Below, in pieces: positions 37,783-62,538 of a stretch of 64,000 nt of DNA. A model generated the notes under the pieces. It had not been told where the DNA came from, ran no database searches, and saw only the letters and a list, made by a program, of their open reading frames with translations. A program made the translations under genes and the position numbers. Within the stretch, counting starts at the first letter, position 1, and every line of letters begins with the position of its first letter. This stretch comes from Candidatus Gottesmanbacteria bacterium RIFCSPLOWO2_01_FULL_43_11b (GTDB lineage: Bacteria; Patescibacteriota; Microgenomatia; UBA10105; UBA927): positions 835,497 through 899,496 of the forward strand of contig MFJV01000001.1 in the NCBI GenBank assembly GCA_001780985.1. The letters are read 5' to 3'.

Positions 37783-38182
37783 GGTGGTCTAGGTATCTTT
37801 TTGCTTTTTCATAACCCGGATAGGGGCCTTGTTTCACTTCAAAAATGACTGTATCCTCGAGCATCTTAAATCCGTGTCCGCCTGCTGCTAAAAATATTTT
37901 ATCTCCCCCGGATAGCGTTACTTTGTGAACACGTTTTCCGTTTGGCGCATAGAGATCGACAATGAGTTTTCCTCTTTCAACCACTAAAACCTCCTGTGTT
38001 GCCCGTACGGTTTTTACCGGTTCATTATGCATATGCGGTCGTATAGTTTCACCGGACTTTTTAACAATCGTACCTATTTGGAATGGGGCAGTGGAAGGAG
38101 AGTAAAACGTGGTTTTAGAGGGAGTCTTGTTACCCCGAATAATAATTGCGAGTAACAGCCGACGGTAATAAATTTTAGACAT
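37769..38182 (-). CDS. small cupin-fold protein (possibly WbuC-like), no clear ketoisomerase motif
   Basis: About 137 aa from the internal Met MSKIYY. GETIRPHMHNEPVKTVRATQEVLVVERGKL..KIFLAAGGHGFKMLEDTVIFEV fits a generic cupin metal-site pattern. Sits immediately upstream of, and overlapping, the DegT gene. Confidence 0.55.
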   Translation of the reverse strand: MSKIYYRRLLLAIIIRGNKTPSKTTFYSPSTAPFQIGTIVKKSGETIRPHMHNEPVKTVRATQEVLVVERGKLIVDLYAPNGKRVHKVTLSGGDKIFLAAGGHGFKMLEDTVIFEVKQGPYPGYEKAKRYLDHHDSR

Positions 38183-39080
38183 AATCTTGTTTTTTTCGTG
38201 ACATCGATGTGACGAGTTCCGCAATAAGCCCTACGGAAATAAGCTGGACTCCGATGACCATGAGGAGTATGCCGGCAAGGAGTAACGGAATATGATGGCC
38301 AACACTTCCGGTAGTAACGCGTATATACGTAACATATGCGTTCATCACAAAACCGATAGAGGTAAGAAGAAATCCATAAAGACCAAAAAAATGAGCAGGC
38401 TTACCTTCGTAATGGGTAAGGAAGAGCACAGTAAGCAGGTCTATTACGGCTCTCCAGCTCCTTCCCAGACCAAATTTTGATTTGCCGAACTTTCTCTTTC
38501 GATGAGCAACCGGAAGTTCCGTAACTTTGTATTTAAGTTTCGCAGCAAGTATAGGGATAAACCGGTGGAGTTCACCATGAAGATTAAGGGATTTTGCAAC
38601 ATTTCCCGTCATGGCTTTGAGGCCGCAATTATAATCATGGAGCGGAACTCCTGAAAGAAACCGAGTTCCGACGTTAAATAGGTAGCTTGAAATTTTCTTT
38701 TCGACACTGTCTTTTCTTTCTTTCCGCCACCCAACAACCAGATCGTACCCGTCGTTAAGTTTCTCTATTAGTTTTATTATTTCTTTTGGATTATCCTGCA
38801 GGTCAGCATCAAGGGTGACGACAACATTCCCTTTTGCTTGTGAAAATCCGTATGCGAGCGCTTCGGACTTGCCAAAATTTGCGCGGAAGTGGAAAACGCG
38901 AACGTGTTTATTTTTCCGTGCAACGGATTCTAATGCTATTTTCGTTTTGTCAGTTGATCCGTCATTAACAAAAAGTATTTCATACGGTTCTCTTACGGTT
39001 TTGAGGATCGCGAAGAGCTCATCGGTTAGATGCGGAAGAGATTCCGCTTCATTTTTGACAGGAATAACAATACTTATCAT
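38175..39080 (-). CDS. GT2 polyprenol-phosphate glycosyltransferase (GtrB/ArnC/DPM1-like) with C-terminal TM anchor
   Basis: Start at internal Met MISIVIPVKNE. ILFVNDGSTDKT..VTLDADLQD..GLKAM, then two C-terminal TM helices (LLAGILLMVIGVQLISVGLIAEL). Confidence 0.8.
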   Translation of the reverse strand: MISIVIPVKNEAESLPHLTDELFAILKTVREPYEILFVNDGSTDKTKIALESVARKNKHVRVFHFRANFGKSEALAYGFSQAKGNVVVTLDADLQDNPKEIIKLIEKLNDGYDLVVGWRKERKDSVEKKISSYLFNVGTRFLSGVPLHDYNCGLKAMTGNVAKSLNLHGELHRFIPILAAKLKYKVTELPVAHRKRKFGKSKFGLGRSWRAVIDLLTVLFLTHYEGKPAHFFGLYGFLLTSIGFVMNAYVTYIRVTTGSVGHHIPLLLAGILLMVIGVQLISVGLIAELVTSMSRKKQDYV

Positions 39081-39130
39081 ATCGTGCTCGAGTATAGAGA
39101 AAACGCAAGGGCAAGTCAACGAATTGAGGG

Positions 39131-39973
39131 TTATTTTCGGGTTCGACCAATAAATAACCATCCAAGAGACACATGAAGAATACATGTCTCTAAGCCCACT
39201 GCGATAGCCCGTGTTACGGAAAATTTTTTAAGGAAATTAAGACCTTGAAGTACGTCTGCAACAACAACAATAACTTTTCCCCGTTCTTTATCCAAGCCGG
39301 ACATTTTATAGGATTTTAGGAAATCAAGCGTGATATCCTCAACAGTAAAGAAGTTCTGTACCATTTGACGAAACTGTTTGTAACTTGGAAGGCGAATATT
39401 GTGGTATGAGTCTCCTCTTCCTAACAGTCGTACGTAGCTGTCTGCAATTTTTGCGGGCAGATAAGACAAGAAGGGGAGTTTAAAATGCGGTTCAATCGGC
39501 CACCATTTATTTGCTGTGGTGATATGCAGTATACCGTCTTTTTTAAGTACTCTGTGTATTTCTTCGAGCATGCGCAACGGTTTATTTACGTGTTCAATAA
39601 CCTCAATTGATGTAACAATGTCAAACGTATTTGAGGGATACGGAATTTTTATCCCGTCGTATTTTTTTACCACTGCGGATATTCGAAGCAACCGCAACAG
39701 CTCCTTCGTTGCTTTTACCTCTCCGTCTCCCACATCGAGTGCTACGGAGCTAGGAAATGTTTGAGCAATTGCACTAAATGTAAGGCCGGTCCCGCAACCG
39801 AGATCCAGTACTTTTGCCCGTTTCGTTTTATACTGGAGGAGTGTATTGACAACTCTTTCTGCTTTAAGCGGTGCAACGCGGGAGTACCCGCGAGCCCAGT
39901 TTTGATTTTTAGCATACTGACTATATTTCCGAATATGGGTATAACTCACTGCGGGGGTTAATTTTACTCTCAT
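39131..39973 (-). CDS. class I SAM-dependent methyltransferase
   Basis: VLDLGCGTGLTFSAIA and FDIVTSIEVIEHV. Confidence 0.8.
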   Translation of the reverse strand: MRVKLTPAVSYTHIRKYSQYAKNQNWARGYSRVAPLKAERVVNTLLQYKTKRAKVLDLGCGTGLTFSAIAQTFPSSVALDVGDGEVKATKELLRLLRISAVVKKYDGIKIPYPSNTFDIVTSIEVIEHVNKPLRMLEEIHRVLKKDGILHITTANKWWPIEPHFKLPFLSYLPAKIADSYVRLLGRGDSYHNIRLPSYKQFRQMVQNFFTVEDITLDFLKSYKMSGLDKERGKVIVVVADVLQGLNFLKKFSVTRAIAVGLETCILHVSLGWLFIGRTRK

Positions 39974-39994
39974 AGCGTGCTATCATAGCAGGAT

Positions 39995-41200
39995 ATGAGA
40001 CTGAATGCACTCATTTCTCTTATACATTCTAAAAAGGCAGCAATAGGCGTTATTGGCCTTGGTTACGTCGGTCTTCCGCTTGCTACGTTAATTGCCCGAA
40101 AAGGATTTCGCGTAACGGGTTTTGTACGCGATCCAAGTAAAATTAATCAAAAAAAAATACGAGTTGCTCACATAGATTCAGACGAACTTAATGAACAGGA
40201 TATATATATTATTTGTGTTCCAACCCCGGTATTCGAAAATAAAAAGCCGGATTTAGGTGCAATCAGAAGCGTTGCACAGCGGCTTTCCCTGGTGCTTCTG
40301 GATGGAAAGCTCATCATCAATGAGTCGACGGTTGCGCCGGGAACGACAAGAGAGGAGTTTGGATCGTTAGGAGGAAAATATTTTTTGGCATGTTCACCTG
40401 AGAGAGTAGATCCCGGAAATAAAGATAAAACTGTGCGAACCATATCTAAAGTTGTCGGCGGAGTTAATCCTGAGAGTTTAGCACTTGCCAAAGTACTCTA
40501 CGAAAAAGTTCTTGATGCACCTGTTGTAAGCGTTTCGTCTCTCGAGGCAGCTGAAATGGTCAAAATGCTTGAGAACACATACCGTGCGGTCAACATAGCC
40601 CTGGTCAATGAGTTTGCCAGACTTAGTGAAAAAACAGGACTTGATGTTGTTGAAATAATCGAAGCAGCAAAAACGAAATGGTCATACCATGCCCATTACC
40701 CGAGTGTCGGAGTCGGTGGTCACTGCATCCCTGTTGATCCCTGGTATCTTGTTGACTTTAGCAAAAAGAAAAACGTGAACCTCACCCTCATTGAACAGAG
40801 TTTAAAGGAGAACGATGCAATGGCACAGGTTGTCGCAGATAAAGTAATCTCTCAGTATAAAAAAGGAGCGACAGTTCTTCTGTATGGACTCACGTATAAA
40901 AAAGACGTCAAAGATATCCGTGAAAGTCCTGTTATTCGTCTGGCTAGGATTTTACAGAAAAACAATATTCGATTTGTGGCTTATGATCCGTTATTAAACG
41001 AACAGGAAATAAAAGCATTTGGTTTTACGCCGGGAAAACTTAAAACTTCGGATATTTTTATTGTCGGTACAGATCATAAACAACTTTCAGGGGATTTTAA
41101 AAGATGCGTAGACAATAATACAATAATTATTGACGGCAGGAATTTTTTCCGAATAAAGGTTGGCAAATCCGTTCTCGGGGTTGGTCGGTCGCTTGTATGA
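39995..41200 (+). CDS. nucleotide-sugar dehydrogenase (UDP-glucose/UDP-ManNAc 6-dehydrogenase family)
   Basis: N-terminal IGVIGLGYVGLPLA Rossmann motif. Catalytic GGHCIPVDPWYL. C-terminal UDP-binding domain. Confidence 0.85.
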   Translation: MRLNALISLIHSKKAAIGVIGLGYVGLPLATLIARKGFRVTGFVRDPSKINQKKIRVAHIDSDELNEQDIYIICVPTPVFENKKPDLGAIRSVAQRLSLVLLDGKLIINESTVAPGTTREEFGSLGGKYFLACSPERVDPGNKDKTVRTISKVVGGVNPESLALAKVLYEKVLDAPVVSVSSLEAAEMVKMLENTYRAVNIALVNEFARLSEKTGLDVVEIIEAAKTKWSYHAHYPSVGVGGHCIPVDPWYLVDFSKKKNVNLTLIEQSLKENDAMAQVVADKVISQYKKGATVLLYGLTYKKDVKDIRESPVIRLARILQKNNIRFVAYDPLLNEQEIKAFGFTPGKLKTSDIFIVGTDHKQLSGDFKRCVDNNTIIIDGRNFFRIKVGKSVLGVGRSLV

Positions 41201-42648
41201 AACCTCTCGTTTCCGTCATTATTCCCTCTTTTAATTCCGCATTGACCATCGGCGTTACCCTTATGAGTTTAAAAAATCAGACATATAAAAACACTGAGAT
41301 TATCGTTGTCGATAAGGGATCAACCGACCTAACGCAAAAAATCTCGGGGAAATTTACAAAAAATGTTTTCACTCACGGACCGGAACGGGCAGCACAAGTG
41401 AATTTTGGGGTAAGGAAGGCTAAAGGGAAATACCTTTACCGAGTAGACTCTGATTTTATCGTTGAACCGGAGGTTATCGAGCAGTGTGTAAAAAAATGTG
41501 AAGAGGAGCGTCTTGACGGAATAGCCGTGCATAATACATCCGCGGAGGGATTAGGTTTTTGGTCAGAAGTAAGGAAAGTCGAACGGAACACATATCGGGA
41601 CGATCCGCTTATTGTCGCGGTGAGATTCTTTACAAAAAATTCATGGAAAACTATCAGCGGATTTGATGAAACCCTGTTCGGACCCGAGGATTACGATTTT
41701 CATAATCGATTTGTCAGCTCCGGATTCCGGTGGGGGAGAGTAAAAGCAATCGAACGTCACCTTGGTGAGCCAAAAAGCATTAAAGATATTTGGAAAAAGC
41801 ATTTTTTTTACGGAAAGCAAATGGTTGGGTATTACCGCAAACATCCCCGTACGGCTTTATTTCAATTTAATCCTGTGAGAGTAAGTTTTGTCCGAAACCT
41901 TGGAGTCTTGCTTTCTTCTCCCACGATTTTTGTCGGGCTTATCATTATGCAGATAGTTAAGTTTACTGCCGGCGGTTTGGGTTTTCTTACAGCTGTCGTT
42001 GTACGTGATGAAAGTCGACTAAGGATTATGTCAACTAAGAGGAAAGTTATCCGATTATACCGCGGCTTAGGTTGGGTAACTTTTTTTACCCGGGTAAGAT
42101 TTTGGACCGGATCCTTCGAGGAGATGGACCGATATATTTCACCCTCAGGTACGATTCTCGATTTGGGTTGTGGCTATGGTATTTTTGCAAACTATCTCGC
42201 ACTTTCTTCTCCCCGACGAAAAGTAATCGGAGTTGATTTGGACAAAGATAAGTTGCGGTATGCCGATAGGGGTATAAAGAACGCAAAATTTCTCTATGGT
42301 GACGCTACGCGTATGCGTGTGCCAAATTTAAAAGGTATAACAATACTCGATGTTCTTCACCACTTAGATTCTTATAGCATGCAGGAAAGTCTGATTAAAG
42401 CATGTACTTCCATGCTTGTTAAGAACGGAAAACTCATTGTGAGCGAAGTTGACAGTAAACCCTTTTGGAAACTTATACTTGCAAGACTCGCGGATTCCCT
42501 GTTGTATCCGGGGCAACCAGTGTATTATGGACATCGCAACCGACTTTTCCCGCTTTTGCAAAAATATTTTGGCGCGGGTAATGTAAGGACATATACGCTC
42601 CATTACAACCCCTTTCCTCATAGGCTTTACATATGTCAAAAAAAATAA
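41197..42648 (+). CDS. bifunctional GT2 glycosyltransferase - TM segment - class I SAM methyltransferase fusion, 483 aa
   Basis: N-terminal VSVIIPSFNS..IIVVDKGSTD..DSD..EDYDF (GT2). Hydrophobic stretch in the middle (FVGLIIMQIVKFTAGGLGFLTAVV). C-terminal ILDLGCGYGIFANYL..ILDVLHHL (methyltransferase). Confidence 0.75.
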   Translation: MKPLVSVIIPSFNSALTIGVTLMSLKNQTYKNTEIIVVDKGSTDLTQKISGKFTKNVFTHGPERAAQVNFGVRKAKGKYLYRVDSDFIVEPEVIEQCVKKCEEERLDGIAVHNTSAEGLGFWSEVRKVERNTYRDDPLIVAVRFFTKNSWKTISGFDETLFGPEDYDFHNRFVSSGFRWGRVKAIERHLGEPKSIKDIWKKHFFYGKQMVGYYRKHPRTALFQFNPVRVSFVRNLGVLLSSPTIFVGLIIMQIVKFTAGGLGFLTAVVVRDESRLRIMSTKRKVIRLYRGLGWVTFFTRVRFWTGSFEEMDRYISPSGTILDLGCGYGIFANYLALSSPRRKVIGVDLDKDKLRYADRGIKNAKFLYGDATRMRVPNLKGITILDVLHHLDSYSMQESLIKACTSMLVKNGKLIVSEVDSKPFWKLILARLADSLLYPGQPVYYGHRNRLFPLLQKYFGAGNVRTYTLHYNPFPHRLYICQKK

Positions 42649-43337
42649 AACAGAAACTTCCCAGTTTTACAATAGCAATACCAGCATACAATGAGGAAGA
42701 AAGTTTACCCTGGGTGCTCAACGATACGCTTCGTCACGCACCTGTTTATTTTTCGGATTTTGAGATAGTCGTTGTGGACGACGGAAGTTCTGATAATACA
42801 TCAAAAATCGTACGTCAGTATACATCAAAAGATAAACGGATCCGTTTAATTCACCAACCCAACAGCGGATACGGCAACGCTATGCTTCGGGGAATTCGTG
42901 CCGCCCGAAAAGATTTTGTTGCGTATATGCCCGCTGATGGGCAGTTTCTTGTCCGGGATATGCGTCATTGTTTCCCTCATATGAGGAACGCAGACCTGAT
43001 TTTGGGATATCGCGGGCCCAGAGTAGACTATTCTGTCTATAGACATATTTTGTCACAAAGCTATCTTTTTCTCCTGCGTTTATTGTACGGACTCAGATAC
43101 AGAGACGTGAACTGGCTGACAATTTGGAGAACACGGGACGTGCAAAAAATGTCCGTTACTTCCCGGGGGATATTTTTGCTTGCAGAAATTGTGATTCGTT
43201 TTAAGAGGAAAGGGCTTAGAATTGTAGAAGCGCCGTCATTTTATAGACCACGGCGGGGAGGGCGCGTGAAAAATACGAAATTTAGAATTGTCCTTCGTAC
43301 GCTTTTGGATGCGCTCCTGTTTCGCCTCGCTCATTGA
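42633..43337 (+). CDS. GT2 family glycosyltransferase (DPM1-like)
   Basis: FTIAIPAYNEEESL..IVVVDDGSSDNT..YMPADGQ. Confidence 0.85.
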   Translation: MSKKIKQKLPSFTIAIPAYNEEESLPWVLNDTLRHAPVYFSDFEIVVVDDGSSDNTSKIVRQYTSKDKRIRLIHQPNSGYGNAMLRGIRAARKDFVAYMPADGQFLVRDMRHCFPHMRNADLILGYRGPRVDYSVYRHILSQSYLFLLRLLYGLRYRDVNWLTIWRTRDVQKMSVTSRGIFLLAEIVIRFKRKGLRIVEAPSFYRPRRGGRVKNTKFRIVLRTLLDALLFRLAH

Positions 43338-43370
43338 TGGTACGAGTTTTTCCTGCTACTATACGAAGAT

Positions 43371-43754
43371 ATGAAATATATAAAAACAGTGAAACCATTT
43401 TATATTGACGAGCGCGGGGAAATGTCTCATTTGCTGCCGGGCACTGTTAAAATAGCGAGTGCAATTGTTATTAAGTGTAAAAGAGGTACTATTCGTGCTA
43501 ATCATTACCATAAGCACGATACGCACTTTTCTTATATGCTTAAAGGCTCCATGGAATATGTGCACAAGGATTTAAAGAAAAAAAACTCAAGAAAGCAATC
43601 GTTTACCGTACGGGAAGGCCAAATTGTTATGACGCCACCCATGTTTGGTCATGCGATGAAATTTCTTGAGGATAGTGTGTTTTTAGCCCTTACGACTGAG
43701 CCGCGAAGCAGGAGCGAGTACGAAACGGACACTGTCCGAATGGAGCTTCTATGA
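43371..43754 (+). CDS. WxcM/FdtA-like cupin (NDP-4-keto-6-deoxyhexose 3,4-ketoisomerase family)
   Basis: 127 aa. RGTIRANHYHKHDTHFSYMLKGSMEY matches the RGxHxHK motif of FdtA/WxcM cupins. Confidence 0.7.
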   Translation: MKYIKTVKPFYIDERGEMSHLLPGTVKIASAIVIKCKRGTIRANHYHKHDTHFSYMLKGSMEYVHKDLKKKNSRKQSFTVREGQIVMTPPMFGHAMKFLEDSVFLALTTEPRSRSEYETDTVRMELL

Positions 43755-44995
43755 AAGGAGCAGTGCATAAAAGAACGACATGTCGAGCATGCAAAAACAC
43801 AAAGTTAACAAAGGTATTGTCTTTAGGACCGACGCCTCTTGCAAATGCTTTTCTCACAAAAGAAATGCTCGACAAAGAGGAAATGTTTTATCCACTTGAT
43901 GTCTATTTCTGTCAGAATTGCCATTTTCTTCAACTCGGTCATGTGGTTAGGCCGGAAATTCTTTTTAAAAATTATGTCTATGTTTCAAGCACGTCGCCCG
44001 TATTCGTTGAACACTTTCATGACTTCGCGCATGATCTTATACAACGGTTTGACTTGGATCAAAAATCGTTGGTTGTTGATATCGGCAGTAATGACGGAAT
44101 ACTTCTTAAACCCCTTAAAGAACATAACCTTCGTACACTGGGTATCGAGCCTGCGCAAAATATTGCGGCAAGAGCGAATAAAGACGGTATCAAAACCATT
44201 GCAAAATTTTTTACTACCGCTCTTGCACGGTCTATAGGTAAAGCATACGGTCAAGCATCGGTTGTGACTGCCAATAACGTATTTGCACATATTGACAATC
44301 TGGACGAAGTTATTGAAGGAACAAAAATTCTTCTTAAAAAAAACGGCGTTTTTGTCGTTGAGGCGCCGTATTTGGTAGATTTTCTTACCAAAAACTATTT
44401 TGATCTTGTCTATCACGAACACCTTTCGTATCTTTCGGTGAAACCGCTCCAAACACTCTTTCACCGATTTGACATGGAGATTTTTGATGTACAAAAAGTT
44501 CCGGTCCACGGAGGATCCATTCGCGTTTTTGTAAAGGGAAAAGGTGCGGCTTACAAACAAACAGCGCGTCTCAGTCATTTCCTAAAACTTGAAAAAAGGA
44601 TGCGCCTTGATAGAGTAGAGACATATTTTACCTATGCGGACAAGGTGCGAATTAACAAAACAAAACTCATTGCTCTCCTGACCAAACTTAAACATCAGGG
44701 GAAATCTATTGCCGGCTACGGTGCTCCCGCCAAAGGAAATACACTGCTCAATTACTTCGGAATCGGTACGGATTATATCAATTACATTATCGACGACAGC
44801 CCGTATAAACAAGGATTATATTCACCCGGGAAGCATATTCCCGTGGTAGCTTCCGCTATGTTAGCCAAGCAAAAACCTGATTACCTTCTTCTTCTTGCCT
44901 GGAATTTTGCCAAACCCATAATGGAAAAACTCCAAGACTATCAGCATCAGGGGGGAAAGTTCATAGTCCCTGTTCCAAGACCCAAAACTGTCTAA
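43751..44995 (+). CDS. NDP-hexose C-methyltransferase (TylC3/NovU-like; Zn-ribbon + SAM MTase + C-terminal domain)
   Basis: N-terminal CRACKN...CQNCHF zinc ribbon. VVDIGSNDGILL motif I. 414 aa three-domain layout typical of sugar 3-C/5-C methyltransferases. Confidence 0.75.
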   Translation: MKGAVHKRTTCRACKNTKLTKVLSLGPTPLANAFLTKEMLDKEEMFYPLDVYFCQNCHFLQLGHVVRPEILFKNYVYVSSTSPVFVEHFHDFAHDLIQRFDLDQKSLVVDIGSNDGILLKPLKEHNLRTLGIEPAQNIAARANKDGIKTIAKFFTTALARSIGKAYGQASVVTANNVFAHIDNLDEVIEGTKILLKKNGVFVVEAPYLVDFLTKNYFDLVYHEHLSYLSVKPLQTLFHRFDMEIFDVQKVPVHGGSIRVFVKGKGAAYKQTARLSHFLKLEKRMRLDRVETYFTYADKVRINKTKLIALLTKLKHQGKSIAGYGAPAKGNTLLNYFGIGTDYINYIIDDSPYKQGLYSPGKHIPVVASAMLAKQKPDYLLLLAWNFAKPIMEKLQDYQHQGGKFIVPVPRPKTV

Positions 44996-45002
44996 TAATT
45001 TT

Positions 45003-46064
45003 ATGCACCCGATTATTCGTCAGGATATACGTCAAATTATCAAAGATATAAAAAAAGAAGCAAGACTGATGGAAGGAAAAACACTTCTTATATCAGGTGG
45101 TGCCGGTTTTTTGGGAAGTTACATTGTCGCGACTATTTCTCTTTTAAACACAAGTCTTTTTAAATCTCCATGTAGGGTTATTGTTGTCGACAATTACATT
45201 ACCGGTAAAAGAAAACGGGATTTAGAATCTCTAGACGACAAAAATATAGAATTCATAACTCATGATATAACCAAACCAATAATTATTGATAAAACAATTG
45301 ACTATATTATTCATGCGGCGGGTTTGGCGTCGCCGGTATATTATAGGAAATTTCCCCTAGAAACCATCGAGGCAGCAATTTTTGGCGCAAAGAATCTTTT
45401 GGAATTGGCAAGGAAAAAGAAAGTTAAAAGCTTTCTCTTTTTTAGTTCAAGCGAAATTTACGGGGATCCTGATCCCAATTTTATTCCAACACCGGAAACA
45501 TACCGCGGTAACGTCTCTCCAATTGGTTCCCGCGCTTGTTATGATGAATCCAAAAGACTGGGAGAAACCATTTCTATAACGTATTTCGACAAATACAAAG
45601 TACCGGTTAAAATTGTACGACCATTTAATGTGTATGGACCCGGAATGAGGCCCGATGATTATCGGGTAATTCCTACCTTTTTAATGAGGGCGCTCGAAAG
45701 AAAACCTTTACCGGTCCATGATGAGGGTAATCAGACGCGAACATTCTGTTACATAAGCGACGCGACGACGGCATTTTTAAAGGTACTTCTTTCTCACAAA
45801 TCGGGAGAAGTGTATAACGTCGGCAGTGATGATGACGAAATAAATATGATGAGTCTCGCTCAAATTGTTGCGGACGTCTCACCGAAAAAAGTAGAAATAA
45901 AAAGAATTCCGTATCCGGAAAACTACCCTAAAGATGAGCCGCGCAGACGCCGCCCCGATCTTTCTAAAATTAAAAATATTCTCAACTACCGGACACGCGT
46001 GAGTCTGAGAACCGGACTCGCCCGTACGCTCCGATGGTTTGCAAGCCAGTTAGAAAAGCAATAG
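45003..46064 (+). CDS. UXS/ArnA-type NAD-dependent sugar nucleotide decarboxylase/dehydratase SDR
   Basis: ISGGAGFLGSY. SSSEIYGDPDPNFIPTPETYRGNVSPIGSRACYDESKRLGE is the UXS-like signature. 40-aa N-terminal extension. Confidence 0.75.
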   Translation: MHPIIRQDIRQIIKDIKKEARLMEGKTLLISGGAGFLGSYIVATISLLNTSLFKSPCRVIVVDNYITGKRKRDLESLDDKNIEFITHDITKPIIIDKTIDYIIHAAGLASPVYYRKFPLETIEAAIFGAKNLLELARKKKVKSFLFFSSSEIYGDPDPNFIPTPETYRGNVSPIGSRACYDESKRLGETISITYFDKYKVPVKIVRPFNVYGPGMRPDDYRVIPTFLMRALERKPLPVHDEGNQTRTFCYISDATTAFLKVLLSHKSGEVYNVGSDDDEINMMSLAQIVADVSPKKVEIKRIPYPENYPKDEPRRRRPDLSKIKNILNYRTRVSLRTGLARTLRWFASQLEKQ

Positions 46065-46068
46065 TCAT

Positions 46069-46971
46069 ATGCCGCGCACAATACTTGCACTTATCGGTCA
46101 TGGACAGTGGGGTAAAAATTACCTTACGACTGCTCAAGAAATTCCTGAATGCCATATTAAATACGTTTGTTCAAGAGACTACAAAAAACTCCTCCGATAT
46201 AAAGAGATCGACGGGATTATTATCGCCACACCTCCGTCAACACATTTCGATATTGCAAGCTTCTTTCTCCTTCATGCAATGCCTCTCCTTATTGAAAAAC
46301 CTTTAACCACAGGATATCAAGATGCATTAAGACTTTTGAGAATGCACAAAGAGAGCGCGCCAGTCGTGTTGGTTGGACATATTTTTTTCTACAACCCGGC
46401 CTTTTTAAGGCTGAAAACCTTAGTGCCTCACATCGGGACACTGGTCTCCATAGATAGCGAGGGAACAAATTTTGGTCCAATGCGCAGTGACGTATCTGCG
46501 TTATGGGATTGGGCCCCTCATGAAATTTCTATGGGGATGAGTCTTATGGGAGCATCGCCTTCGGCGGTTCAAGGGTGGTCTCTTCGAACAAAAATATCCG
46601 GACGCGAAACAGACGATATGGTATATATGAAACTTGTCTTTGGAAAAATTTCTATGTTTTCAAAAATCGGTTGGTTGTCACCGATAAAAACACGACGTTT
46701 TACCGTTACAGGGACACATGGCGCTATCATTTTTGATGATATGCACCCCGTCCGTAAATTGAAACAGTTAAGTGGAGCTTTGCGTGCTGTTATTTCTTAT
46801 CCTTCCTACGAAAAAACAGCGCCGCTCGAAAATCAATTGCGTGAATTCATTTCGTGTATCCGCTTGAAGCGAAAACCCCGCACAGACCTTGCACACGGGG
46901 TCGAGTGCGTACGCGTTATCGATGCGGTTGAACGGTCAATACGGCAAAAAGGCAAATATATCTCTCTTTGA
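46069..46971 (+). CDS. Gfo/Idh/MocA-family NAD(P)-dependent sugar oxidoreductase
   Basis: ALIGHGQWGKNY N-terminal Rossmann motif. EKPL motif (LLIEKPLTT). Confidence 0.75.
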   Translation: MPRTILALIGHGQWGKNYLTTAQEIPECHIKYVCSRDYKKLLRYKEIDGIIIATPPSTHFDIASFFLLHAMPLLIEKPLTTGYQDALRLLRMHKESAPVVLVGHIFFYNPAFLRLKTLVPHIGTLVSIDSEGTNFGPMRSDVSALWDWAPHEISMGMSLMGASPSAVQGWSLRTKISGRETDDMVYMKLVFGKISMFSKIGWLSPIKTRRFTVTGTHGAIIFDDMHPVRKLKQLSGALRAVISYPSYEKTAPLENQLREFISCIRLKRKPRTDLAHGVECVRVIDAVERSIRQKGKYISL

Positions 46972-47835
46972 ATATTTGTGGATTTCGTCGAGTGCTTCCT
47001 GCCACGTATGAAAGGTAACTCCGAGAATTCGTCTCGTTCTACGAGACACAAATCCTCCGATACGGGTTCGCGGAGCCTTTGATGATTTCTTAAGATACCG
47101 TTCCATAGAACCCTTTTTCAAGGAATAATTTTTTACAAAATAGCAATCAAATTCCCATCTTGAAACAGGCGGCCCGCAACCCACATGGTAGATTCCGGTG
47201 ATACGTTTTTGGGCAAGCTTAAAAAGAACATTACTTAAATCCGGAATGTAGGTCGGTGTAAATTGCTGATCGGCAAACAGTGAATGTCCCATATGAATCT
47301 CTCTAACAGTTTTACGGATAAGATCCCGCGGGGAGGCGATATTACCGAACGGATGTGAAATTCGTACAATCGCGTACCGATTGTTTCTGTCTACAATACT
47401 TTTTTCTGCTGTCAATTTTGTGACACCATACCAGTTAATATCATTATAGTTAGATGCAACCGGGTCAGATTCATTGTAGGGTCCCGGTTCGTTTCGAGTT
47501 CCAGGAAACACTGCATCTGAAGAGATTTGAATAAAAAAAGCACTATAGTCAATTGAGAGGTTATGGAGCGTTTGTACTGCCTCAACATTGAGACGCCAGA
47601 CCGGTCCAAACTGTTTGCCGCGGGATTTCTCGATGGCGTCAATAGCGGTTGTGGCTGCAAAATTAATAATGACATCCGGATGGAATTTTTTAATATAGGA
47701 GTTAACAGTACGCGGATGGGTAATATCGAGGTGTTTATGTGAAGGAGTAAAAACTTTGAACGGTTTATCGGCAAAAAAGGAATGAACAGATGATCCGACC
47801 AATCCACTTGCTCCTATGAGAAGGATTGTTTGCAT
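46936..47835 (-). CDS. RmlD-like NDP-4-keto-sugar reductase (dTDP-4-dehydrorhamnose reductase family SDR)
   Basis: ILLIGASGLVGS..DIT..DVIINFAA. 299 aa. 3' end overlaps the convergent gene by 36 nt. Confidence 0.7.
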   Translation of the reverse strand: MQTILLIGASGLVGSSVHSFFADKPFKVFTPSHKHLDITHPRTVNSYIKKFHPDVIINFAATTAIDAIEKSRGKQFGPVWRLNVEAVQTLHNLSIDYSAFFIQISSDAVFPGTRNEPGPYNESDPVASNYNDINWYGVTKLTAEKSIVDRNNRYAIVRISHPFGNIASPRDLIRKTVREIHMGHSLFADQQFTPTYIPDLSNVLFKLAQKRITGIYHVGCGPPVSRWEFDCYFVKNYSLKKGSMERYLKKSSKAPRTRIGGFVSRRTRRILGVTFHTWQEALDEIHKYSKRDIFAFLPY

Positions 47836-48980
47836 TAAATAGAGTTGACAACGTTTATGATGTGGTGAATCTCTTTCGTCGTTAACCTAGGATAGAAAGG
47901 AAGTGATATCGTGCTGCCTCCAATTTTTTCGGCACCTTTAAATGTCCCGCGTTTATAACCATATTTCTTTTTATAATATGAGAGAAGATGTAATGGTTTA
48001 AAATGCACAGAGATGCTGATACCGCTATTCTGGATGGCATTGATATATGTATCCCTCCTTTTCGGGTCGACCCAGATTGTATAGAGATATCGGGCATGGA
48101 GTGATTTTGCAGGAAAAGAAGGCAGACGGATTGCTGGATTTTTAGAAAATGCCTTATCGTACATTCGGGCAATCCTTTCCCGTTTGTGAAGCAGTGAGTT
48201 GATTCGTTCGAGCTGGTGGAGGAGGAGGGATGCTGCAATGTTGGTCATATTGGCTTTATACCCTAAAAATTCTAAGTCGTTTGGCTCGTAGCGCTTCACG
48301 TAGCGGTCGACGGCATTTTTGCTCATACCATGGATCCGTGCCCGAATGAACCACTCAAAAGCCTTCTTGTTGTTGGTTGTAATAGCACCGCCTTCCCCGG
48401 AAGTAATAGTTTTTGTTGCATAAAAACTAAAACAGGCAAAATCCGACAAACCACCAACGCGAATTCCATCTCTTTTTCCTTCAATACAATGTGCGGCATC
48501 TTCGATAACTTTCAATCCGTGTTTCTTTGCGATTGCATGAATTTTTTTCATATCGCACATAAGCCCATACAAATGAACAACTAATATGGCTTTTGTTTTT
48601 TTTGTAATAGCGGATTCGATAAGATTCGCATCAAGGTTACCCGTAGATTCTTCGACATCGACGAATACCGGTTTAGCGCCGCAGTGTTCAATGACATTAC
48701 TAGAGGCAGCAAACGTCATAACCGTGGTAATAACCTCATCACCCGGACCGATTCCGAGGTACTTGAGCGCCAAAAACAGCGCATCCGTGCAGCTGCTCAC
48801 TCCGACGCAGTATTTCGCACCAATGTAACGGGCAAATTTCTTTTCAAATTCTTTAACGACTTCTCCTGTAGTTAAGAATATTGAGTTAAGTACTCTGATG
48901 CACTCTTTTATATCCTTATTGTTTAGATTATGCCGATAAAATTCAATTTTTTTTCTTTTCATGTGCTGCAGTGACGACAA
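47835..48980 (-). CDS. DegT/DnrJ/EryC1-family PLP-dependent sugar aminotransferase
   Basis: GDEVITTVMTFAAS..VDVE..DAAHCIEG..CFSFYATKTITSGEGGAITT, with the Lys present. Start may be the internal Met MKRKKIEFY at 48962. Confidence 0.85.
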   Translation of the reverse strand: MSSLQHMKRKKIEFYRHNLNNKDIKECIRVLNSIFLTTGEVVKEFEKKFARYIGAKYCVGVSSCTDALFLALKYLGIGPGDEVITTVMTFAASSNVIEHCGAKPVFVDVEESTGNLDANLIESAITKKTKAILVVHLYGLMCDMKKIHAIAKKHGLKVIEDAAHCIEGKRDGIRVGGLSDFACFSFYATKTITSGEGGAITTNNKKAFEWFIRARIHGMSKNAVDRYVKRYEPNDLEFLGYKANMTNIAASLLLHQLERINSLLHKRERIARMYDKAFSKNPAIRLPSFPAKSLHARYLYTIWVDPKRRDTYINAIQNSGISISVHFKPLHLLSYYKKKYGYKRGTFKGAEKIGGSTISLPFYPRLTTKEIHHIINVVNSI

Positions 48981-49857
48981 TTGTTCCCGATTTATGCATT
49001 AAACTTCCTGCGATCCAAAAAAGTATAACGATGGGGGAGCCCACTGTCAACCAAAATATACTCCAGAATGCGTCCTTCGGTCGAAACGTAGCATCATGGC
49101 CGCGCCTTATGAATCTATGAAGCGCTCCCTGAGATCCGGTTGAGGCGTTAATAAATGTTTGGAGGAGGCACGGCAGATGGTGCTCCGGTGACCAGTAATC
49201 GATGGATTCTACTTTAAATCCATATTGTTTTAGGAGAAGTTCTATCGATACGGGAGTATTTTCCCAAATGTGAAACTTCGGGGTATGGAACCAGTGACTA
49301 CCAAAGACATAGTATTCCAGACAATCAATATTTGGAACGCCGATAACCAATCGGCCATGTTTAGGAATAAGATTCTTTTTGGATGCTGCAATGTAGTCCC
49401 AAGGGTTGGGAACATGTTCGAGTACGTGCCAAAAAGAAATGACGTCCGCATTCAAATTATTCTTTTTAAGAAATTCTTCATCGGTTAATGTTGCAATGCC
49501 GGCGTCCTTCATGAGACGGCGGGCGGACGCGGAAACTTCAACACCGATCTTTTTTTCCGCCCGGACAGTTTTGAGGAAACTGCCGTCACCTGCACCTACA
49601 TCTATCCAGAGCTTTTTTTGTTCTGTTCCTACGTAGAGAGACCGAATAAGATAAAAGAAGGTAGATACGGGCTTCAAAAGTTTAGAAGCGAGAGGAGATG
49701 TCCCTTGATAATACTTTTCCTCGTATGTCGGGATCACGAAACGTTTTACCCATGCAAGCCGGCAGACAGAACAATGCAAATATAGAGGGAGATGGGGGAG
49801 TTGTTGCCCTTTGTTTTTACAGAAGGGGCATCTAGTGCGTTCTATAATACTTTTCAT
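48943..49857 (-). CDS. SAM-dependent methyltransferase with N-terminal Cys4 zinc ribbon
   Basis: CPFCKN...CSVC followed by WIDVGAGDGSFL and VISFWHVLEHV. Start taken at internal Met MKSIIERT. Confidence 0.75.
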   Translation of the reverse strand: MKSIIERTRCPFCKNKGQQLPHLPLYLHCSVCRLAWVKRFVIPTYEEKYYQGTSPLASKLLKPVSTFFYLIRSLYVGTEQKKLWIDVGAGDGSFLKTVRAEKKIGVEVSASARRLMKDAGIATLTDEEFLKKNNLNADVISFWHVLEHVPNPWDYIAASKKNLIPKHGRLVIGVPNIDCLEYYVFGSHWFHTPKFHIWENTPVSIELLLKQYGFKVESIDYWSPEHHLPCLLQTFINASTGSQGALHRFIRRGHDATFRPKDAFWSIFWLTVGSPIVILFWIAGSLMHKSGTIVVTAAHEKKKN

Positions 49858-53128: not shown

Positions 53129-53192
53129 AAAGGATTCTTGTCGTGTTATACTACCATACCCTATCTGTGCCGAAAAGAAGAATGTTTGATCT

Positions 53193-60306: not shown

Positions 60307-60346
60307 GGACTGCTTTGTAGAGCCATTGTATAATGCGCATTATATT

Positions 60347-61528: not shown

Positions 61529-61532
61529 CGCT

Positions 61533-62513: not shown

Positions 62514-62538
62514 AACGGTCACCTTCCTCTGCTATAAT

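What the first reader, a model, noticed from the sequence alone, without database searches (positions are those of the whole stretch)
43371..44995. WxcM/FdtA-like cupin plus TylC3-like C-methyltransferase: branched-chain (C-methyl) sugar module
A 127-aa cupin with the RGxHxHK motif of NDP-sugar 3,4-ketoisomerases is translationally coupled (ATGA overlap) to a three-domain sugar C-methyltransferase with a zinc ribbon, a SAM domain and a C-terminal domain. C-methylated sugars are typical of antibiotic glycones and rare in surface glycans.
Basis: partly seen in the sequence, partly recalled or inferred. Interest (0 to 1): 0.55.

Follow-up and report, generated by a model that had tools for sequence, protein, structure and literature searches.

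The report
Conserved branched-sugar cassette: cupin plus C-methyltransferase
Two overlapping genes, a small FdtA-like cupin and a sugar C-methyltransferase, are the core of a four-gene cassette found across uncultivated bacteria and archaea; it probably makes a methyl-branched surface sugar, most likely a pentose, whose identity is unknown.

Summary
A 127-aa cupin (43371-43754) overlaps by ATGA a 414-aa methyltransferase (43751-44995). The methyltransferase has all three domains of sugar C-methyltransferases, is 41% identical to MtmC, and keeps the zinc cysteines and catalytic Tyr/His/Tyr-Glu-His.

The cupin is only partly "FdtA". It scores below Pfam's FdtA cut-off (21.2 vs 23 bits), and its motif reads RANHYHK, not RGxHxHK. 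Its predicted fold nevertheless matches the 3,4-ketoisomerases FdtA/QdtA best. FdtA's Arg15, His49, His51 and His95 are all kept, and RmlC is not matched. It belongs to a separate, unnamed family.

The real unit is larger than the finding. In 74 of 80 related loci (CPR bacteria, DPANN and Thaumarchaeota, Elusimicrobia, Omnitrophica, Alphaproteobacteria) a C-methyltransferase lies within 5 kb of the cupin. In 62 there is also a UDP-xylose-synthase-like decarboxylase, and often a GFO oxidoreductase. Natural cupin/C-methyltransferase fusions exist in both orders.

I read it as a cassette making a C-methyl-branched nucleotide sugar, probably a pentose from UDP-glucuronate, for surface glycosylation. 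The product, the methylated carbon and the cupin's exact reaction (ketoisomerase or epimerase) are inferred, not shown. I rate it a new variant of a known kind, of moderate interest.

The parts
43371..43754 (+). 127-aa single-domain cupin from an unnamed family related to FdtA/QdtA. The conserved residues are D13, R15, G16, R42-A-N-H45-x-H47 and H94.
   Evidence: ORF. Pfam: FdtA 21.2 bits, below its cut-off of 23; Cupin_1 25.8; PF14667 29.8. The AlphaFold2 model has pLDDT 92.5. Foldseek ranks QdtA, FdtA and FdtD first, with TM 0.72-0.77. hhalign places H45/H47/H94/R15 on FdtA H49/H51/H95/R15. These residues are kept in 80/80 loci.
43751..43754 (+). ATGA stop/start overlap between the cupin and the C-methyltransferase.
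   Evidence: Read directly from the sequence. The same 4-nt overlap occurs in 17 of 48 adjacent pairs elsewhere.
43751..44995 (+). 414-aa NDP-sugar C-methyltransferase of the TylC3/TcaB9/KijD1/MtmC type.
   Evidence: PDB: MtmC 4rv9 E=1.3e-101; KijD1 and TcaB9 about 1e-82. It is 41% identical to MtmC over 410 aa without gaps.
43781..43966 (+). Zinc-ribbon domain, residues 11-72, with Cys11, Cys14, Cys54 and Cys57.
   Evidence: PF08421 82.8 bits. Cysteine positions. All four cysteines are present in 72 of 75 cassette homologues.
44018..44482 (+). Class I SAM-binding domain, residues 90-244. It contains H180 and Y221/E223/H224; Y77 lies just upstream.
   Evidence: PF13489 54.3 bits. These residues align with the PYxSS Tyr, the AH(I/ID) His and the Y-x-E-H motif of KijD1 and MtmC. 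They are conserved in 74/75 homologues.
44501..44977 (+). C-methyltransferase-specific C-terminal domain, residues 251-409.
   Evidence: PF08484 199.4 bits, covering profile positions 1-160 of 160.
45003..46064 (+). 353-aa extended SDR of the UDP-glucuronate decarboxylase (UDP-xylose synthase) family. It is the likely source of the 4-keto sugar.
   Evidence: Human UXS1 2b69 E=8e-61 (209 bits), against 112 bits for the next family. Motifs: SSSE at 148, YDESK at 180, QTRTF at 244. An orthologue of at least 40% identity lies within 5 kb of the cupin in 62/80 loci.
46069..46971 (+). 300-aa GFO/IDH/MocA oxidoreductase, a candidate ketoreductase of the cassette.
   Evidence: PF01408 and PF02894. Best NCBIfam match is UDP-GlcNAc 3-dehydrogenase, 98.7 bits, below its cut-off. 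Best PDB match is 3c1a, E=3.5e-33. Present within 5 kb in 39/80 loci. A 241-243-aa classical SDR takes its place in the Thaumarchaeota and Omnitrophica loci read.
42633..43337 (+). 234-aa GT2, a polyprenyl-phosphate glycosyltransferase-like protein, 33 nt upstream of the cupin. Context only; possibly the carrier-loading step.
   Evidence: PF00535 96.5 bits. Weak matches to ArnC, PpgS and dolichyl-phosphate hexose transferase models. 61-62% orthologues lie upstream in L007 and L009.
39995..41200 (+). 401-aa nucleotide-sugar 6-dehydrogenase, first gene of the same-strand run. It is a possible source of the uronic-acid substrate.
   Evidence: TIGR03026 331.9 bits, above its cut-off of 189.8. It is not conserved next to the cassette in most loci.
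46936..48980 (-). Convergent pair: an RmlD-like reductase (46936-47835) and a DegT/ArnB/PseC-like aminotransferase (47835-48980). These are possible alternative finishing enzymes and are not part of the conserved core.
   Evidence: PF04321 153 bits and PF01041 396 bits. A DegT homologue adjoins the cupin in only some loci: L008, L012, L021, L037, L059.

Best explanation
The two genes are the core of a conserved cassette, cupin - C-methyltransferase - UXS-like decarboxylase - (GFO or classical-SDR reductase), that makes a C-methyl-branched nucleotide sugar for surface glycosylation.

Proposed route. Every step below is inferred from homology and gene linkage; none was assayed.
1. The UXS-like enzyme oxidises and decarboxylates a UDP-uronic acid, most simply UDP-glucuronate, to a UDP-4-keto-pentose.
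2. The zinc-ribbon/SAM enzyme removes the proton next to the ketone and transfers a methyl group from SAM to that carbon. By analogy with MtmC, TcaB9 and KijD1 this carbon is C-3.
3. The small cupin uses the FdtA-type histidine set (H45, H47, H94, with R15) to move protons on the same enolisable keto-sugar. It acts either as a 3,4-ketoisomerase or as an epimerase, and so sets which keto isomer or stereoisomer is methylated or reduced.
4. The GFO oxidoreductase (a classical SDR in some lineages) reduces the remaining ketone.

In this window the product would then be loaded onto a polyprenyl phosphate by the adjacent GT2 and transferred by one of the many GT-C enzymes of the island. That is an Arn-like logic, and it is also inference.
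For: C-methyltransferase identity:
- Three Pfam domains.
- MtmC E=1e-101 at 41% identity; KijD1 39%.
- Zinc cysteines and Y77/H180/Y221/E223/H224 conserved in 72-74 of 75 homologues.

Cupin:
- High-confidence model.
- The best structural matches are all NDP-sugar 3,4-ketoisomerases, covering the whole length.
- FdtA R15/H49/H51/K52/H95 align to R15/H45/H47/K48/H94, which are invariant in 80 loci.
- Pfam FdtA is hit by 27/41 family members, RmlC by 1/41.

Linkage:
- C-methyltransferase within 5 kb in 74/80 loci from at least eight phyla of bacteria and archaea.
- UXS-like enzyme within 5 kb in 62; all three genes in 60; plus GFO in 33.
- Tight or overlapping junctions.
- Natural fusion proteins in both orders: P0152 (cupin then C-MT), P0197 and P0218 (C-MT then cupin).

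UXS assignment:
- 209 bits to human UXS1, against 112 bits for any other SDR.
- Catalytic S-S-E, Y-x3-K and Arg all conserved.
- A UXS-family enzyme can release the 4-keto-pentose, as shown for EvdS6 (PMC10338323).

Context:
- The 64-kb window is one glycosylation island. It has GT2s, at least nine PMT_2 GT-C proteins, sugar aminotransferases and methyltransferases, and no antibiotic-type genes.
Against: - No enzyme was assayed, and the product is unknown.
- The cupin fails Pfam's FdtA threshold. Foldseek scores for RmlC-type epimerases (E 3e-7 to 1.5e-6) are close to those for ketoisomerases (6e-8 to 2e-7), so the reaction type is not resolved.
- If methylation is at C-3 of a 4-keto sugar, the product has no C-3 proton and cannot be ketoisomerised. 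The cupin would then have to act first, or the methyltransferase would have to act on another carbon. Either way one step is unprecedented.
- Canonical UXS keeps its 4-keto intermediate bound.
- The Thaumarchaeota loci read (L030, L049, L064) replace the UXS-like enzyme by an unrelated extended SDR, so 'pentose' cannot hold for every cupin/C-MT pair.
- I found no C-methyl pentose made this way in the literature searched. That may mean it is new, or that the inference is wrong.
Confidence: 0.55

Rival explanations
1. The cassette and route are the same, but the cupin is an epimerase rather than a 3,4-ketoisomerase. It would play the part of NovW or TylK/EvaD, at C-3 or at the carbon on the other side of the ketone, before or after methylation, as in the noviose, mycarose and epivancosamine pathways.
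For: From established knowledge: in every characterised C-methyl sugar pathway the cupin partner of the C-methyltransferase is an RmlC-type epimerase (NovW with NovU; TylK with TylC3; EvaD with EvaC). RmlC-type epimerases (1wlt, ChmJ 4hn0/4hmz, 1ep0, WbcA, StrM) follow the ketoisomerases closely in Foldseek. The profile search of PDB sequences ranks an archaeal RmlC homologue (E=0.01) slightly above WxcM-like proteins (E=0.09). CapF's cupin domain, a C-3 epimerase as I recall it, is also matched.
Against: The window cupin has no PF00908 hit, and only 1/41 family members has one. The motif is H-x-H as in FdtA, not the H-x-Q of RmlC. hhalign covers 102 columns with FdtA but only 42 with RmlC. 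At 127 aa its size fits FdtA (139 aa), not RmlC (about 180 aa). In a pentose, C-5 is not a stereocentre, so a 5-epimerase would have nothing to do.
Confidence: 0.3
2. This is a classical TylC3-type pathway. The methyltransferase would act on an NDP-4-keto-6-deoxyhexose made by another dehydratase of the island, and the neighbouring UXS-like gene would belong to a separate pathway (UDP-xylose or Ara4N-like).
For: All solved relatives (MtmC, TcaB9, KijD1) use dTDP-4-keto-6-deoxyhexose derivatives. The window holds two more extended SDRs (20245-21189 and 61533-62513) with sub-threshold dehydratase/epimerase scores. The Thaumarchaeota cassettes read lack the UXS-like gene.
Against: The UXS-like gene lies within 5 kb of the cupin in 62/80 loci, usually directly after the methyltransferase (about 1.3 kb from the cupin end), across unrelated phyla. 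No RmlA or RmlB equivalog was seen in the window; no NCBIfam cut-off was reached.
Confidence: 0.12
3. The methyltransferase methylates C-5 of the UDP-4-keto-pentose, with NovU-like regiochemistry. That would rebuild a 4-keto-6-deoxyhexose, which is exactly the native substrate type of FdtA-like ketoisomerases. The product would then be reduced at C-3 by the GFO enzyme.
For: NovU-type members of this family methylate C-5 next to a 4-ketone (established knowledge). FdtA-like residues are fully conserved in the cupin. As I recall them, the characterised GFO-family NDP-sugar oxidoreductases act at C-3; the best NCBIfam match here is a UDP-GlcNAc 3-dehydrogenase.
Against: It is a costly detour compared with a 4,6-dehydratase, and there is no precedent. 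The closest solved relatives are all C-3 methyltransferases.
Confidence: 0.06
4. The cupin is a metal-dependent enzyme or binding protein unrelated to nucleotide sugars (oxalate-decarboxylase or dioxygenase-like) that merely sits next to the methyltransferase.
For: The best PDB sequence hits are oxalate decarboxylases (33 bits, E=6e-7). The canonical cupin metal positions are occupied by His (H45, H47, H52, H94).
Against: Linkage to the methyltransferase is conserved in 74/80 loci, and gene fusions exist. H52 is Gln in 15/80 homologues. The N-terminal D-x-R-G motif shared with FdtA and RmlC is invariant. Foldseek's first 36 matches are all NDP-sugar cupins.
Confidence: 0.04

Closest known systems
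NDP-sugar C-methyltransferases TylC3 / EryBIII / EvaC / TcaB9 / KijD1 / MtmC (C-3) and NovU (C-5)
   Same: Same three-domain architecture (zinc ribbon, SAM domain, PF08484 C-terminal domain). 41% identity to MtmC and 39% to KijD1 over the full length. The four zinc cysteines and the Tyr / His / Tyr-x-Glu-His catalytic set are conserved.
   Different: It comes from a CPR bacterium's glycosylation island, not an actinomycete antibiotic cluster. It is linked to a UXS-like decarboxylase rather than to a 4,6-dehydratase and 2,3-dehydratase. The substrate nucleotide and the methylated carbon are untested.
FdtA / QdtA / FdtD / WlaRA / Tyl1a NDP-4-keto-6-deoxyhexose 3,4-ketoisomerases (Pfam PF05523)
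   Same: Same size class (127 vs about 139 aa). It gives the best Foldseek matches (TM 0.72-0.77, rmsd 2.4-3.4 A). The D-x-R-G N-terminal motif, R-x-x-H-x-H-K and the third His align with FdtA D13/R15/G16, R46/H49/H51/K52 and H95.
   Different: Only about 20% identity. It scores below Pfam's cut-off (21.2 vs 23 bits; true FdtA scores 183 bits). The motif has Ala-Asn where FdtA has Gly-Phe. The gene partner is a C-methyltransferase, not an FdtB/QdtB aminotransferase plus acyltransferase. The likely substrate is a pentose.
Noviose (NovT-NovW-NovU-NovS) and mycarose (TylA2...TylC3-TylK-TylC2) pathway logic
   Same: The same four roles are present: an SDR that makes the 4-ketone, a cupin that moves protons next to it, a SAM C-methyltransferase and a ketoreductase.
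   Different: The keto-generating enzyme is a decarboxylase of the UXS family. The cupin is FdtA-sized rather than RmlC-type. The reductase is a GFO/IDH/MocA protein or a classical SDR rather than an RmlD or extended SDR. The comparison rests on established knowledge of those pathways, not on a test here.
UDP-xylose synthase family, including keto-releasing members (ArnA C-terminal domain, RsU4kpxs, EvdS6)
   Same: 209 bits to human UXS1, with catalytic Tyr-x3-Lys, Glu and Arg conserved. EvdS6 shows that a family member in a branched-sugar pathway can release the UDP-4-keto-xylose (PMC10338323).
   Different: The cassette-linked enzymes carry Ser in place of the Thr of the T-S-E triad in about 62/63 homologues, plus a roughly 25-residue N-terminal extension. 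Whether they release the ketone is unknown.
Coxiella burnetii CBU_0691 and the proposed virenose pathway
   Same: A TylC3-like C-methyltransferase placed in a surface-glycan (LPS O-antigen) pathway rather than an antibiotic one (PMC3539893).
   Different: That pathway is proposed from dTDP- or GDP-4-keto-6-deoxyhexose. The term 'cupin' does not occur in that paper's main text, and the pathway it proposes names no UXS-like partner.

Membership tests
NDP-sugar C-methyltransferase (TylC3/TcaB9 type) | N-terminal zinc ribbon with four cysteines (PF08421) | tested here: met
   82.8 bits against a cut-off of 31.3. C11, C14, C54 and C57 are present.
NDP-sugar C-methyltransferase (TylC3/TcaB9 type) | Class I SAM-binding Rossmann domain | tested here: met
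   PF13489 54.3 bits against a cut-off of 27.
NDP-sugar C-methyltransferase (TylC3/TcaB9 type) | C-methyltransferase-specific C-terminal domain (PF08484) | tested here: met
   199.4 bits against a cut-off of 23.5, covering the full profile 1-160.
NDP-sugar C-methyltransferase (TylC3/TcaB9 type) | Catalytic residues equivalent to TcaB9 Tyr76, His181, Tyr222, Glu224, His225 (numbering from memory of the Holden-lab papers) | tested here: met
   Y77, H180, Y221, E223 and H224 align with the same motifs in KijD1 and MtmC. They are conserved in 74/75 cassette homologues.
NDP-sugar C-methyltransferase (TylC3/TcaB9 type) | SAM-dependent C-methylation of an NDP-keto-sugar; regiochemistry | not testable with these tools
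   Needs an enzyme assay and NMR.
FdtA/WxcM 3,4-ketoisomerase (PF05523) | Score at or above Pfam's gathering threshold | tested here: not met
   21.2 bits against a cut-off of 23. 27/41 family members hit at E<=0.01, best 1.2e-7. Authentic FdtA scores 183.3 bits.
FdtA/WxcM 3,4-ketoisomerase (PF05523) | Catalytic His pair (FdtA His49/His51), plus His95 and Arg15 | tested here: met
   hhalign pairs H45/H47/H94/R15 with them. They are invariant in 80 loci. The FdtA sequence used was verified as 100% identical to 2pa7.
FdtA/WxcM 3,4-ketoisomerase (PF05523) | Small single-domain cupin fold superposable on FdtA/QdtA | tested here: met
   Model pLDDT 92.5. Foldseek ranks 1-21 are all ketoisomerases; FdtA 2pa7 gives TM 0.77 and rmsd 2.5 A. 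RmlC-type hits are close behind.
FdtA/WxcM 3,4-ketoisomerase (PF05523) | Conversion of an NDP-4-keto sugar to the 3-keto isomer | not testable with these tools
   Needs an enzyme assay.
RmlC-type NDP-sugar epimerase (PF00908) | Match to the family profile | tested here: not met
   The window protein has no hit at E<=0.01. 1/41 family members hits at E=0.0015. A recalled RmlC sequence scores 257 bits on that profile.
RmlC-type NDP-sugar epimerase (PF00908) | About 180-200 aa, with the His-x-Gln motif and a catalytic Tyr in the C-terminal half | tested here: not met
   The protein is 127 aa with an H-x-H motif. hhalign aligns only 42 N-terminal columns with RmlC.
UDP-xylose synthase / UDP-glucuronate decarboxylase (for the neighbour at 45003-46064) | Full-length similarity to UXS well above other extended SDRs, with catalytic (T/S)-S-E, Y-x3-K and Arg | tested here: met
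   209 bits to human UXS1, against 112 bits for the next family. S-S-S-E, YDESK and QTRTF are present. Thr is replaced by Ser.
UDP-xylose synthase / UDP-glucuronate decarboxylase (for the neighbour at 45003-46064) | Decarboxylation of UDP-GlcA; release or retention of the 4-keto intermediate | not testable with these tools
   Needs an enzyme assay.

The most novel reading that the evidence does not exclude
A widespread, uncharacterised pathway makes a C-methyl-branched pentose, or amino-pentose, from UDP-glucuronate through a released UDP-4-keto-pentose. It occurs in CPR bacteria, DPANN and Thaumarchaeota, Elusimicrobia, Omnitrophica and some Alphaproteobacteria. A new family of FdtA-like mini-cupins works hand in hand with the C-methyltransferase and is sometimes fused to it. 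The sugar reaches the cell surface by an Arn-like polyprenyl-phosphate/GT-C route. This would be a sugar class and a cupin/methyltransferase partnership not yet described.
Probability: 0.3. Interest if true: 0.65.

Novelty: new variant of a known kind. Interest (0 to 1): 0.45.

Why it matters
Surface glycans of CPR bacteria and DPANN archaea are almost unknown, although these episymbiotic cells depend on surface contact with hosts. This cassette predicts a methyl-branched sugar in at least 295 species-level genomes, mostly uncultivated lineages. That would move C-methyl sugars from an antibiotic curiosity to a recurrent component of environmental cell envelopes.

It also offers three practical things:
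- a compact four-protein system that could be reconstituted in vitro
- a new cupin family for studying how ketoisomerase and epimerase chemistry diverged
- possible enzymes for making branched UDP-pentoses

Tried and rejected
- Sequence search of the PDB with the cupin, alone or as a family profile, put oxalate decarboxylases first. I rejected this as functional evidence: it reflects the generic cupin metal motif, and gene linkage and fold point to NDP-sugar cupins.
- Pfam's top cupin hit is PF14667 'Polysacc_synt_C' (29.8 bits, just above its cut-off; 41/41 family members). I could not establish what that model describes. Papers use the accession for Wzx flippases. E. coli WzxE does not match it, and neither FdtA nor RmlC does. 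From memory it might be the CapF C-terminal cupin, and CapF is indeed a weak match. I put no weight on it.
- The NCBIfam WbuC cupin model scores 16.9 bits against a cut-off of 42, so the cupin is not a member.
- Promoter and terminator scans of 39000-49500 were no better than shuffles. There are no tRNAs or Rfam hits in the window.
- Literature searches for a C-methyltransferase plus UXS cassette, or for a C-methyl pentose, found nothing relevant beyond EvdS6 and the virenose proposal.
- I looked in the UXS-like enzyme for the residues that control keto release in EvdS6. Only a conservative Thr-to-Ser change was found, which predicts nothing.
- The 80 fetched loci contain no fused cupin/C-MT ORFs. 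Fusions were found only in the 1.8-billion-protein library, and their contigs could not be inspected.
Full report
**Observation**

The cupin is at 43371-43754 (+, 127 aa) and the methyltransferase at 43751-44995 (+, 414 aa). They overlap by the four bases ATGA.

The methyltransferase carries the three expected Pfam domains, far above their cut-offs:
- PF08421 zinc ribbon, 82.8 bits
- PF13489 SAM domain, 54.3 bits
- PF08484 C-methyltransferase C-terminal domain, 199.4 bits, full profile

The motif is R-A-N-H-Y-H-K, not RGxHxHK.

**The methyltransferase**

Its closest solved relatives are the sugar 3-C-methyltransferases:
- MtmC (4rv9), E=1.3e-101
- KijD1 (5t6b), E=1.9e-82
- TcaB9 (3ndi), E=8.6e-82

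It is 41% identical to MtmC over 410 residues without a gap, and 39% identical to KijD1. The four zinc cysteines (C11, C14, C54, C57) are present. So are Y77, H180 and Y221/E223/H224, which sit in the same motifs as the catalytic residues of those enzymes. These residues are kept in 72-74 of 75 homologues from related loci. Membership in the TylC3/TcaB9 family is therefore met on every feature that can be tested by sequence. The substrate and the methylated carbon cannot be read from sequence.

**The cupin**

Pfam gives only weak hits:
- PF14667, 29.8 bits
- Cupin_1, 25.8 bits
- Cupin_2, 23.0 bits
- FdtA PF05523, 21.2 bits, below its cut-off of 23

There is no RmlC (PF00908) hit. For comparison, authentic FdtA scores 183 bits on PF05523 and a recalled RmlC sequence scores 257 bits on PF00908. 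Across 41 family members, FdtA is hit by 27 (best E=1.2e-7) and RmlC by one.

Sequence searches of the PDB are dominated by oxalate decarboxylases. Sugar cupins (archaeal RmlC, WxcM-like, WlaRA, Cap5F) appear only at E=0.01-0.2.

An alignment of 41 homologues shows these invariant residues: D13, R15, G16, R42, A43, N44, H45, H47, G59, Y63, H94, M96, F98, R112 and Y117.

An AlphaFold2 model built from that alignment is confident (pLDDT 92.5). Foldseek against the PDB puts the 3,4-ketoisomerases QdtA, FdtA and FdtD in ranks 1-21, with HCAN_0198 and WlaRA further down the list. For these, E is 6e-8 to 1e-6, TM is 0.69-0.77, and coverage is full-length. RmlC-type epimerases follow at E 3e-7 to 1.6e-6, and CapF at rank 49.

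I recalled the FdtA sequence from memory and verified it as 100% identical to 2pa7. A profile-to-sequence alignment with it pairs D13/R15/G16 with FdtA D13/R15/G16. It pairs R42/H45/H47/K48 with R46/H49/H51/K52, and H94 with His95. The alignment with RmlC covers only 42 N-terminal columns.

From memory of the Holden-laboratory work, His49 and His51 are FdtA's catalytic pair, and Arg15/His95 distinguish FdtA-type from QdtA-type enzymes. The title of PDB entry 4zu7, a QdtA double mutant beginning Y17R (the listing cuts the second change off at 'R97'), is consistent with this.

In 80 related loci D13 (Glu in one locus), R15, G16, R42, H45, H47 and H94 are kept. H52, the fourth canonical cupin metal position, is Gln in 15 of them.

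My conclusion is that the cupin is homologous to, and most resembles, the FdtA-type ketoisomerases in size, fold and active-site residues. It is nevertheless a separate, unnamed family and fails Pfam's membership threshold. Whether it isomerises or epimerises is not resolved.

**Source and distribution**

The identical cupin protein is encoded on a 180-kb groundwater metagenome scaffold (ANAN16 scaffold_85). That scaffold carries the same neighbouring genes as the window across the 20 kb fetched.

Close homologues are annotated as Levybacteria or Patescibacteria. A scan of one genome per species found relatives in 295 genomes. A search of 1.84 billion representative proteins found 678 with E<=1e-10.

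**Context conservation**

I compared the window's neighbouring proteins with the best 80 loci using tblastn. These loci come from:
- CPR bacteria: Levybacteria, Roizmanbacteria, Sungbacteria, Magasanikbacteria, Paceibacteria, Saccharibacteria
- Woesearchaeota and Nanoarchaeota
- Thaumarchaeota
- Elusimicrobia
- Omnitrophica
- Tectomicrobia
- Alphaproteobacteria, such as Magnetovibrio

Counts out of 80 loci:

| Feature near the cupin | Loci |
|---|---|
| C-methyltransferase within 5 kb | 74 |
| C-methyltransferase directly downstream, same strand | 48 |
| Orthologue (>=40% identity) of the next window gene, 45003-46064, within 5 kb | 62 |
| All three genes together | 60 |
| All three plus a GFO oxidoreductase | 33 |

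Among the 48 adjacent pairs, 17 have the same 4-nt overlap, 6 have other overlaps and 22 have gaps of 0-20 nt.

Fusion proteins exist in both orders:
- P0152 (561 aa): cupin followed by the full C-methyltransferase
- P0197 (543 aa) and P0218 (564 aa): C-methyltransferase followed by the cupin
- P0239 and P0249: fragments of the second kind
- P0196: the cupin joined to a generic class I methyltransferase

I could not inspect the contigs behind these fusion proteins. The two orders and the several independent clusters argue against a calling artefact.

**The neighbours**

The 353-aa protein at 45003-46064 belongs to the UDP-xylose synthase (UDP-glucuronate decarboxylase) family. It scores 209 bits (E=8e-61) to human UXS1, against 112 bits for the next SDR. 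It has the S-S-E, Y-D-E-S-K and Q-T-R motifs at the positions of UXS1's catalytic T-S-E, Y-x3-K and Arg. The Ser-for-Thr change is shared by about 62 of 63 cassette-linked orthologues.

The 300-aa protein at 46069-46971 is a GFO/IDH/MocA oxidoreductase. Its best named match is UDP-GlcNAc 3-dehydrogenase, below cut-off. Its best solved relative is the uncharacterised 3c1a.

In the three Thaumarchaeota and two Omnitrophica loci I read, a 241-243-aa classical SDR sits between the cupin and the methyltransferase, and no GFO gene was found within 5 kb. In the Thaumarchaeota loci the upstream extended SDR is not UXS-like.

The cassette therefore always offers four roles: an SDR able to create a keto-sugar, the cupin, the C-methyltransferase and a reductase.

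**Mechanism (inferred)**

This is the logic of the noviose (NovT/NovW/NovU/NovS) and mycarose pathways, known from the literature, with three substitutions:
- a decarboxylase instead of a 4,6-dehydratase
- an FdtA-sized cupin instead of an RmlC-type epimerase
- a GFO or classical SDR instead of an RmlD-like reductase

EvdS6 shows that a UXS-family enzyme can release UDP-4-keto-xylose. Its paper proposes that sugar as the likely precursor of the branched sugar eurekanate (PMC10338323).

The most economical reading has four steps:
1. UDP-GlcA is converted to a UDP-4-keto-pentose.
2. The carbon next to the ketone is C-methylated.
3. The cupin moves protons on the same enolisable intermediate.
4. 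The remaining ketone is reduced.

There is a chemical constraint. Once C-3 is methylated it carries no proton, so a 3,4-ketoisomerase could not act afterwards. Either the cupin acts first, or it is an epimerase, or the methyltransferase targets another carbon. Each option contains one unprecedented step, so the product cannot be named.

As I recall, characterised GFO-family NDP-sugar oxidoreductases act at C-3. That would favour a 3-keto intermediate and hence a ketoisomerase, but I did not test this.

**Wider window**

All 64 kb form a glycosylation island:
- at least nine PMT_2-type GT-C membrane glycosyltransferases
- a YfhO-like and a GT87-like protein
- many GT2 and GT4 enzymes and class I methyltransferases
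- five DegT-family enzymes and a NeuD/PglB/VioB-type acetyltransferase
- an RfbH-like / Fcl-like / TylF-like trio at the right end

The cupin is preceded on the same strand by a nucleotide-sugar dehydrogenase, a GT2-methyltransferase fusion and a small GT2 resembling polyprenyl-phosphate glycosyltransferases. Together with the UXS/ArnA-like decarboxylase, the ArnB-like aminotransferase on the opposite strand and the ArnT-like GT-C enzymes, this recalls the Ara4N pathway. That comparison is an analogy, not a result.

No antibiotic-type genes and no RmlA/RmlB equivalogs were seen.

**Comparison with the known, and novelty**

The methyltransferase is a new member of a known family. The cupin founds a distinct family next to FdtA. 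The cassette as a whole, with its UXS-like entry enzyme and cupin/C-MT fusions, is not described in the literature I could search. The closest surface-glycan precedent is the proposed role of CBU_0691 in Coxiella virenose synthesis (PMC3539893). I rate it a new variant of a known kind.

**Verdict**

The methyltransferase call is right. The cupin is FdtA-like in fold and residues but not a Pfam member. The module is larger than described and probably pentose-based. It is not rare in this corner of the tree of life.
- Interest is 0.45. The enzymology is familiar. What stands out is the conserved, cross-domain cassette, its fusions and its unknown branched-sugar product in poorly known organisms.

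Noticed in passing
window 1-64000, e.g. 987-2432, 2429-3862, 5357-6607, 18964-20238, 23600-25822, 28101-30137, 30769-32754, 32751-34745, 55871-58138: The whole window is one glycosylation island. It holds at least nine paralogous PMT_2-type (ArnT/PMT-like GT-C) membrane glycosyltransferases. It also holds a YfhO-like protein (3859-5421) and a weak GT87-like protein (9594-10646; 24.9 bits, just below Pfam's cut-off of 25). That is an unusually large set for a small-genome CPR bacterium.
   Followed up: partly
window 60263-63270 (+): There is a second deoxysugar-type module at the right end. It comprises an RfbH-like PLP/PMP enzyme (209.7 bits, cut-off 423), a GDP-fucose-synthase-like SDR (198.9 bits, cut-off 500) and a TylF-like O-methyltransferase (76.5 bits).
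   Followed up: no
window 36664-37782(-), 47835-48980(-), 52025-53254(-), 60263-61528(+), 53193-53828(+): Four DegT-family aminotransferase/dehydratase paralogues were scanned; the first is LegC-like at 369.7 bits against a cut-off of 420. There is also a NeuD/PglB/VioB-family sugar acetyltransferase, at 193.4 bits above its cut-off of 160.8. Together these suggest that several amino-sugar pathways sit side by side.
   Followed up: no
window 41197-42648 (+): A single 483-aa protein fuses an N-terminal GT2 glycosyltransferase to a C-terminal class I SAM methyltransferase. Orthologues at 51-59% identity lie upstream of the cupin cassette in L007 and L009.
   Followed up: no
window 10609-12093, 12075-13592, 21189-22412, 50565-52028(-), 8485-9597, 49-990, 37769-38224(-): Several long ORFs inside the island have no Pfam match at the thresholds used: 1e-3 for 10609-12093, 12075-13592, 50565-52028, 8485-9597 and 37769-38224; 1e-6 for 21189-22412; 1e-8 for 49-990. 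50565-52028 and 37769-38224 also carry no Pfam family in the gene calls of the source scaffold.
   Followed up: no
proteins P0152, P0197, P0218, P0239, P0249, P0196 (metagenomic; not in the window): Natural fusions of this cupin family with the three-domain C-methyltransferase occur in both orders, and there is one fusion with a generic class I methyltransferase. Their contigs could not be inspected.
   Followed up: partly
window 43371-43754; Pfam PF14667: All 41 cupin family members match Pfam PF14667 'Polysacc_synt_C' (best E=6.8e-10). Papers use that accession for Wzx flippases, yet the protein is an all-beta cupin. E. coli WzxE, FdtA and RmlC do not match the model. What that model really describes stayed unresolved.
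   Followed up: partly
window 45003-46064 and orthologues in L007-L086: Cassette-linked UXS-like enzymes carry Ser instead of Thr in the catalytic T-S-E triad (S-S-S-E in about 62 of 63), plus a roughly 25-residue N-terminal extension. In EvdS6 the T126A change abolishes the reductive step; the effect of Ser is unknown.
   Followed up: partly
L030, L049, L064 (Thaumarchaeota); L061, L077 (Omnitrophica): A variant cassette has the order extended SDR - cupin - classical 241-243-aa SDR - C-methyltransferase. In the Thaumarchaeota loci the first SDR is not UXS-like (motif SSKNVYG, about 25% identity), so the sugar there may not be a pentose.
   Followed up: partly
window 46069-46971; PDB 3c1a: The nearest solved relative of the cassette's GFO oxidoreductase is 3c1a, deposited only as 'putative oxidoreductase' (E=3.5e-33). 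It may be an orthologue whose function this cassette could explain.
   Followed up: no
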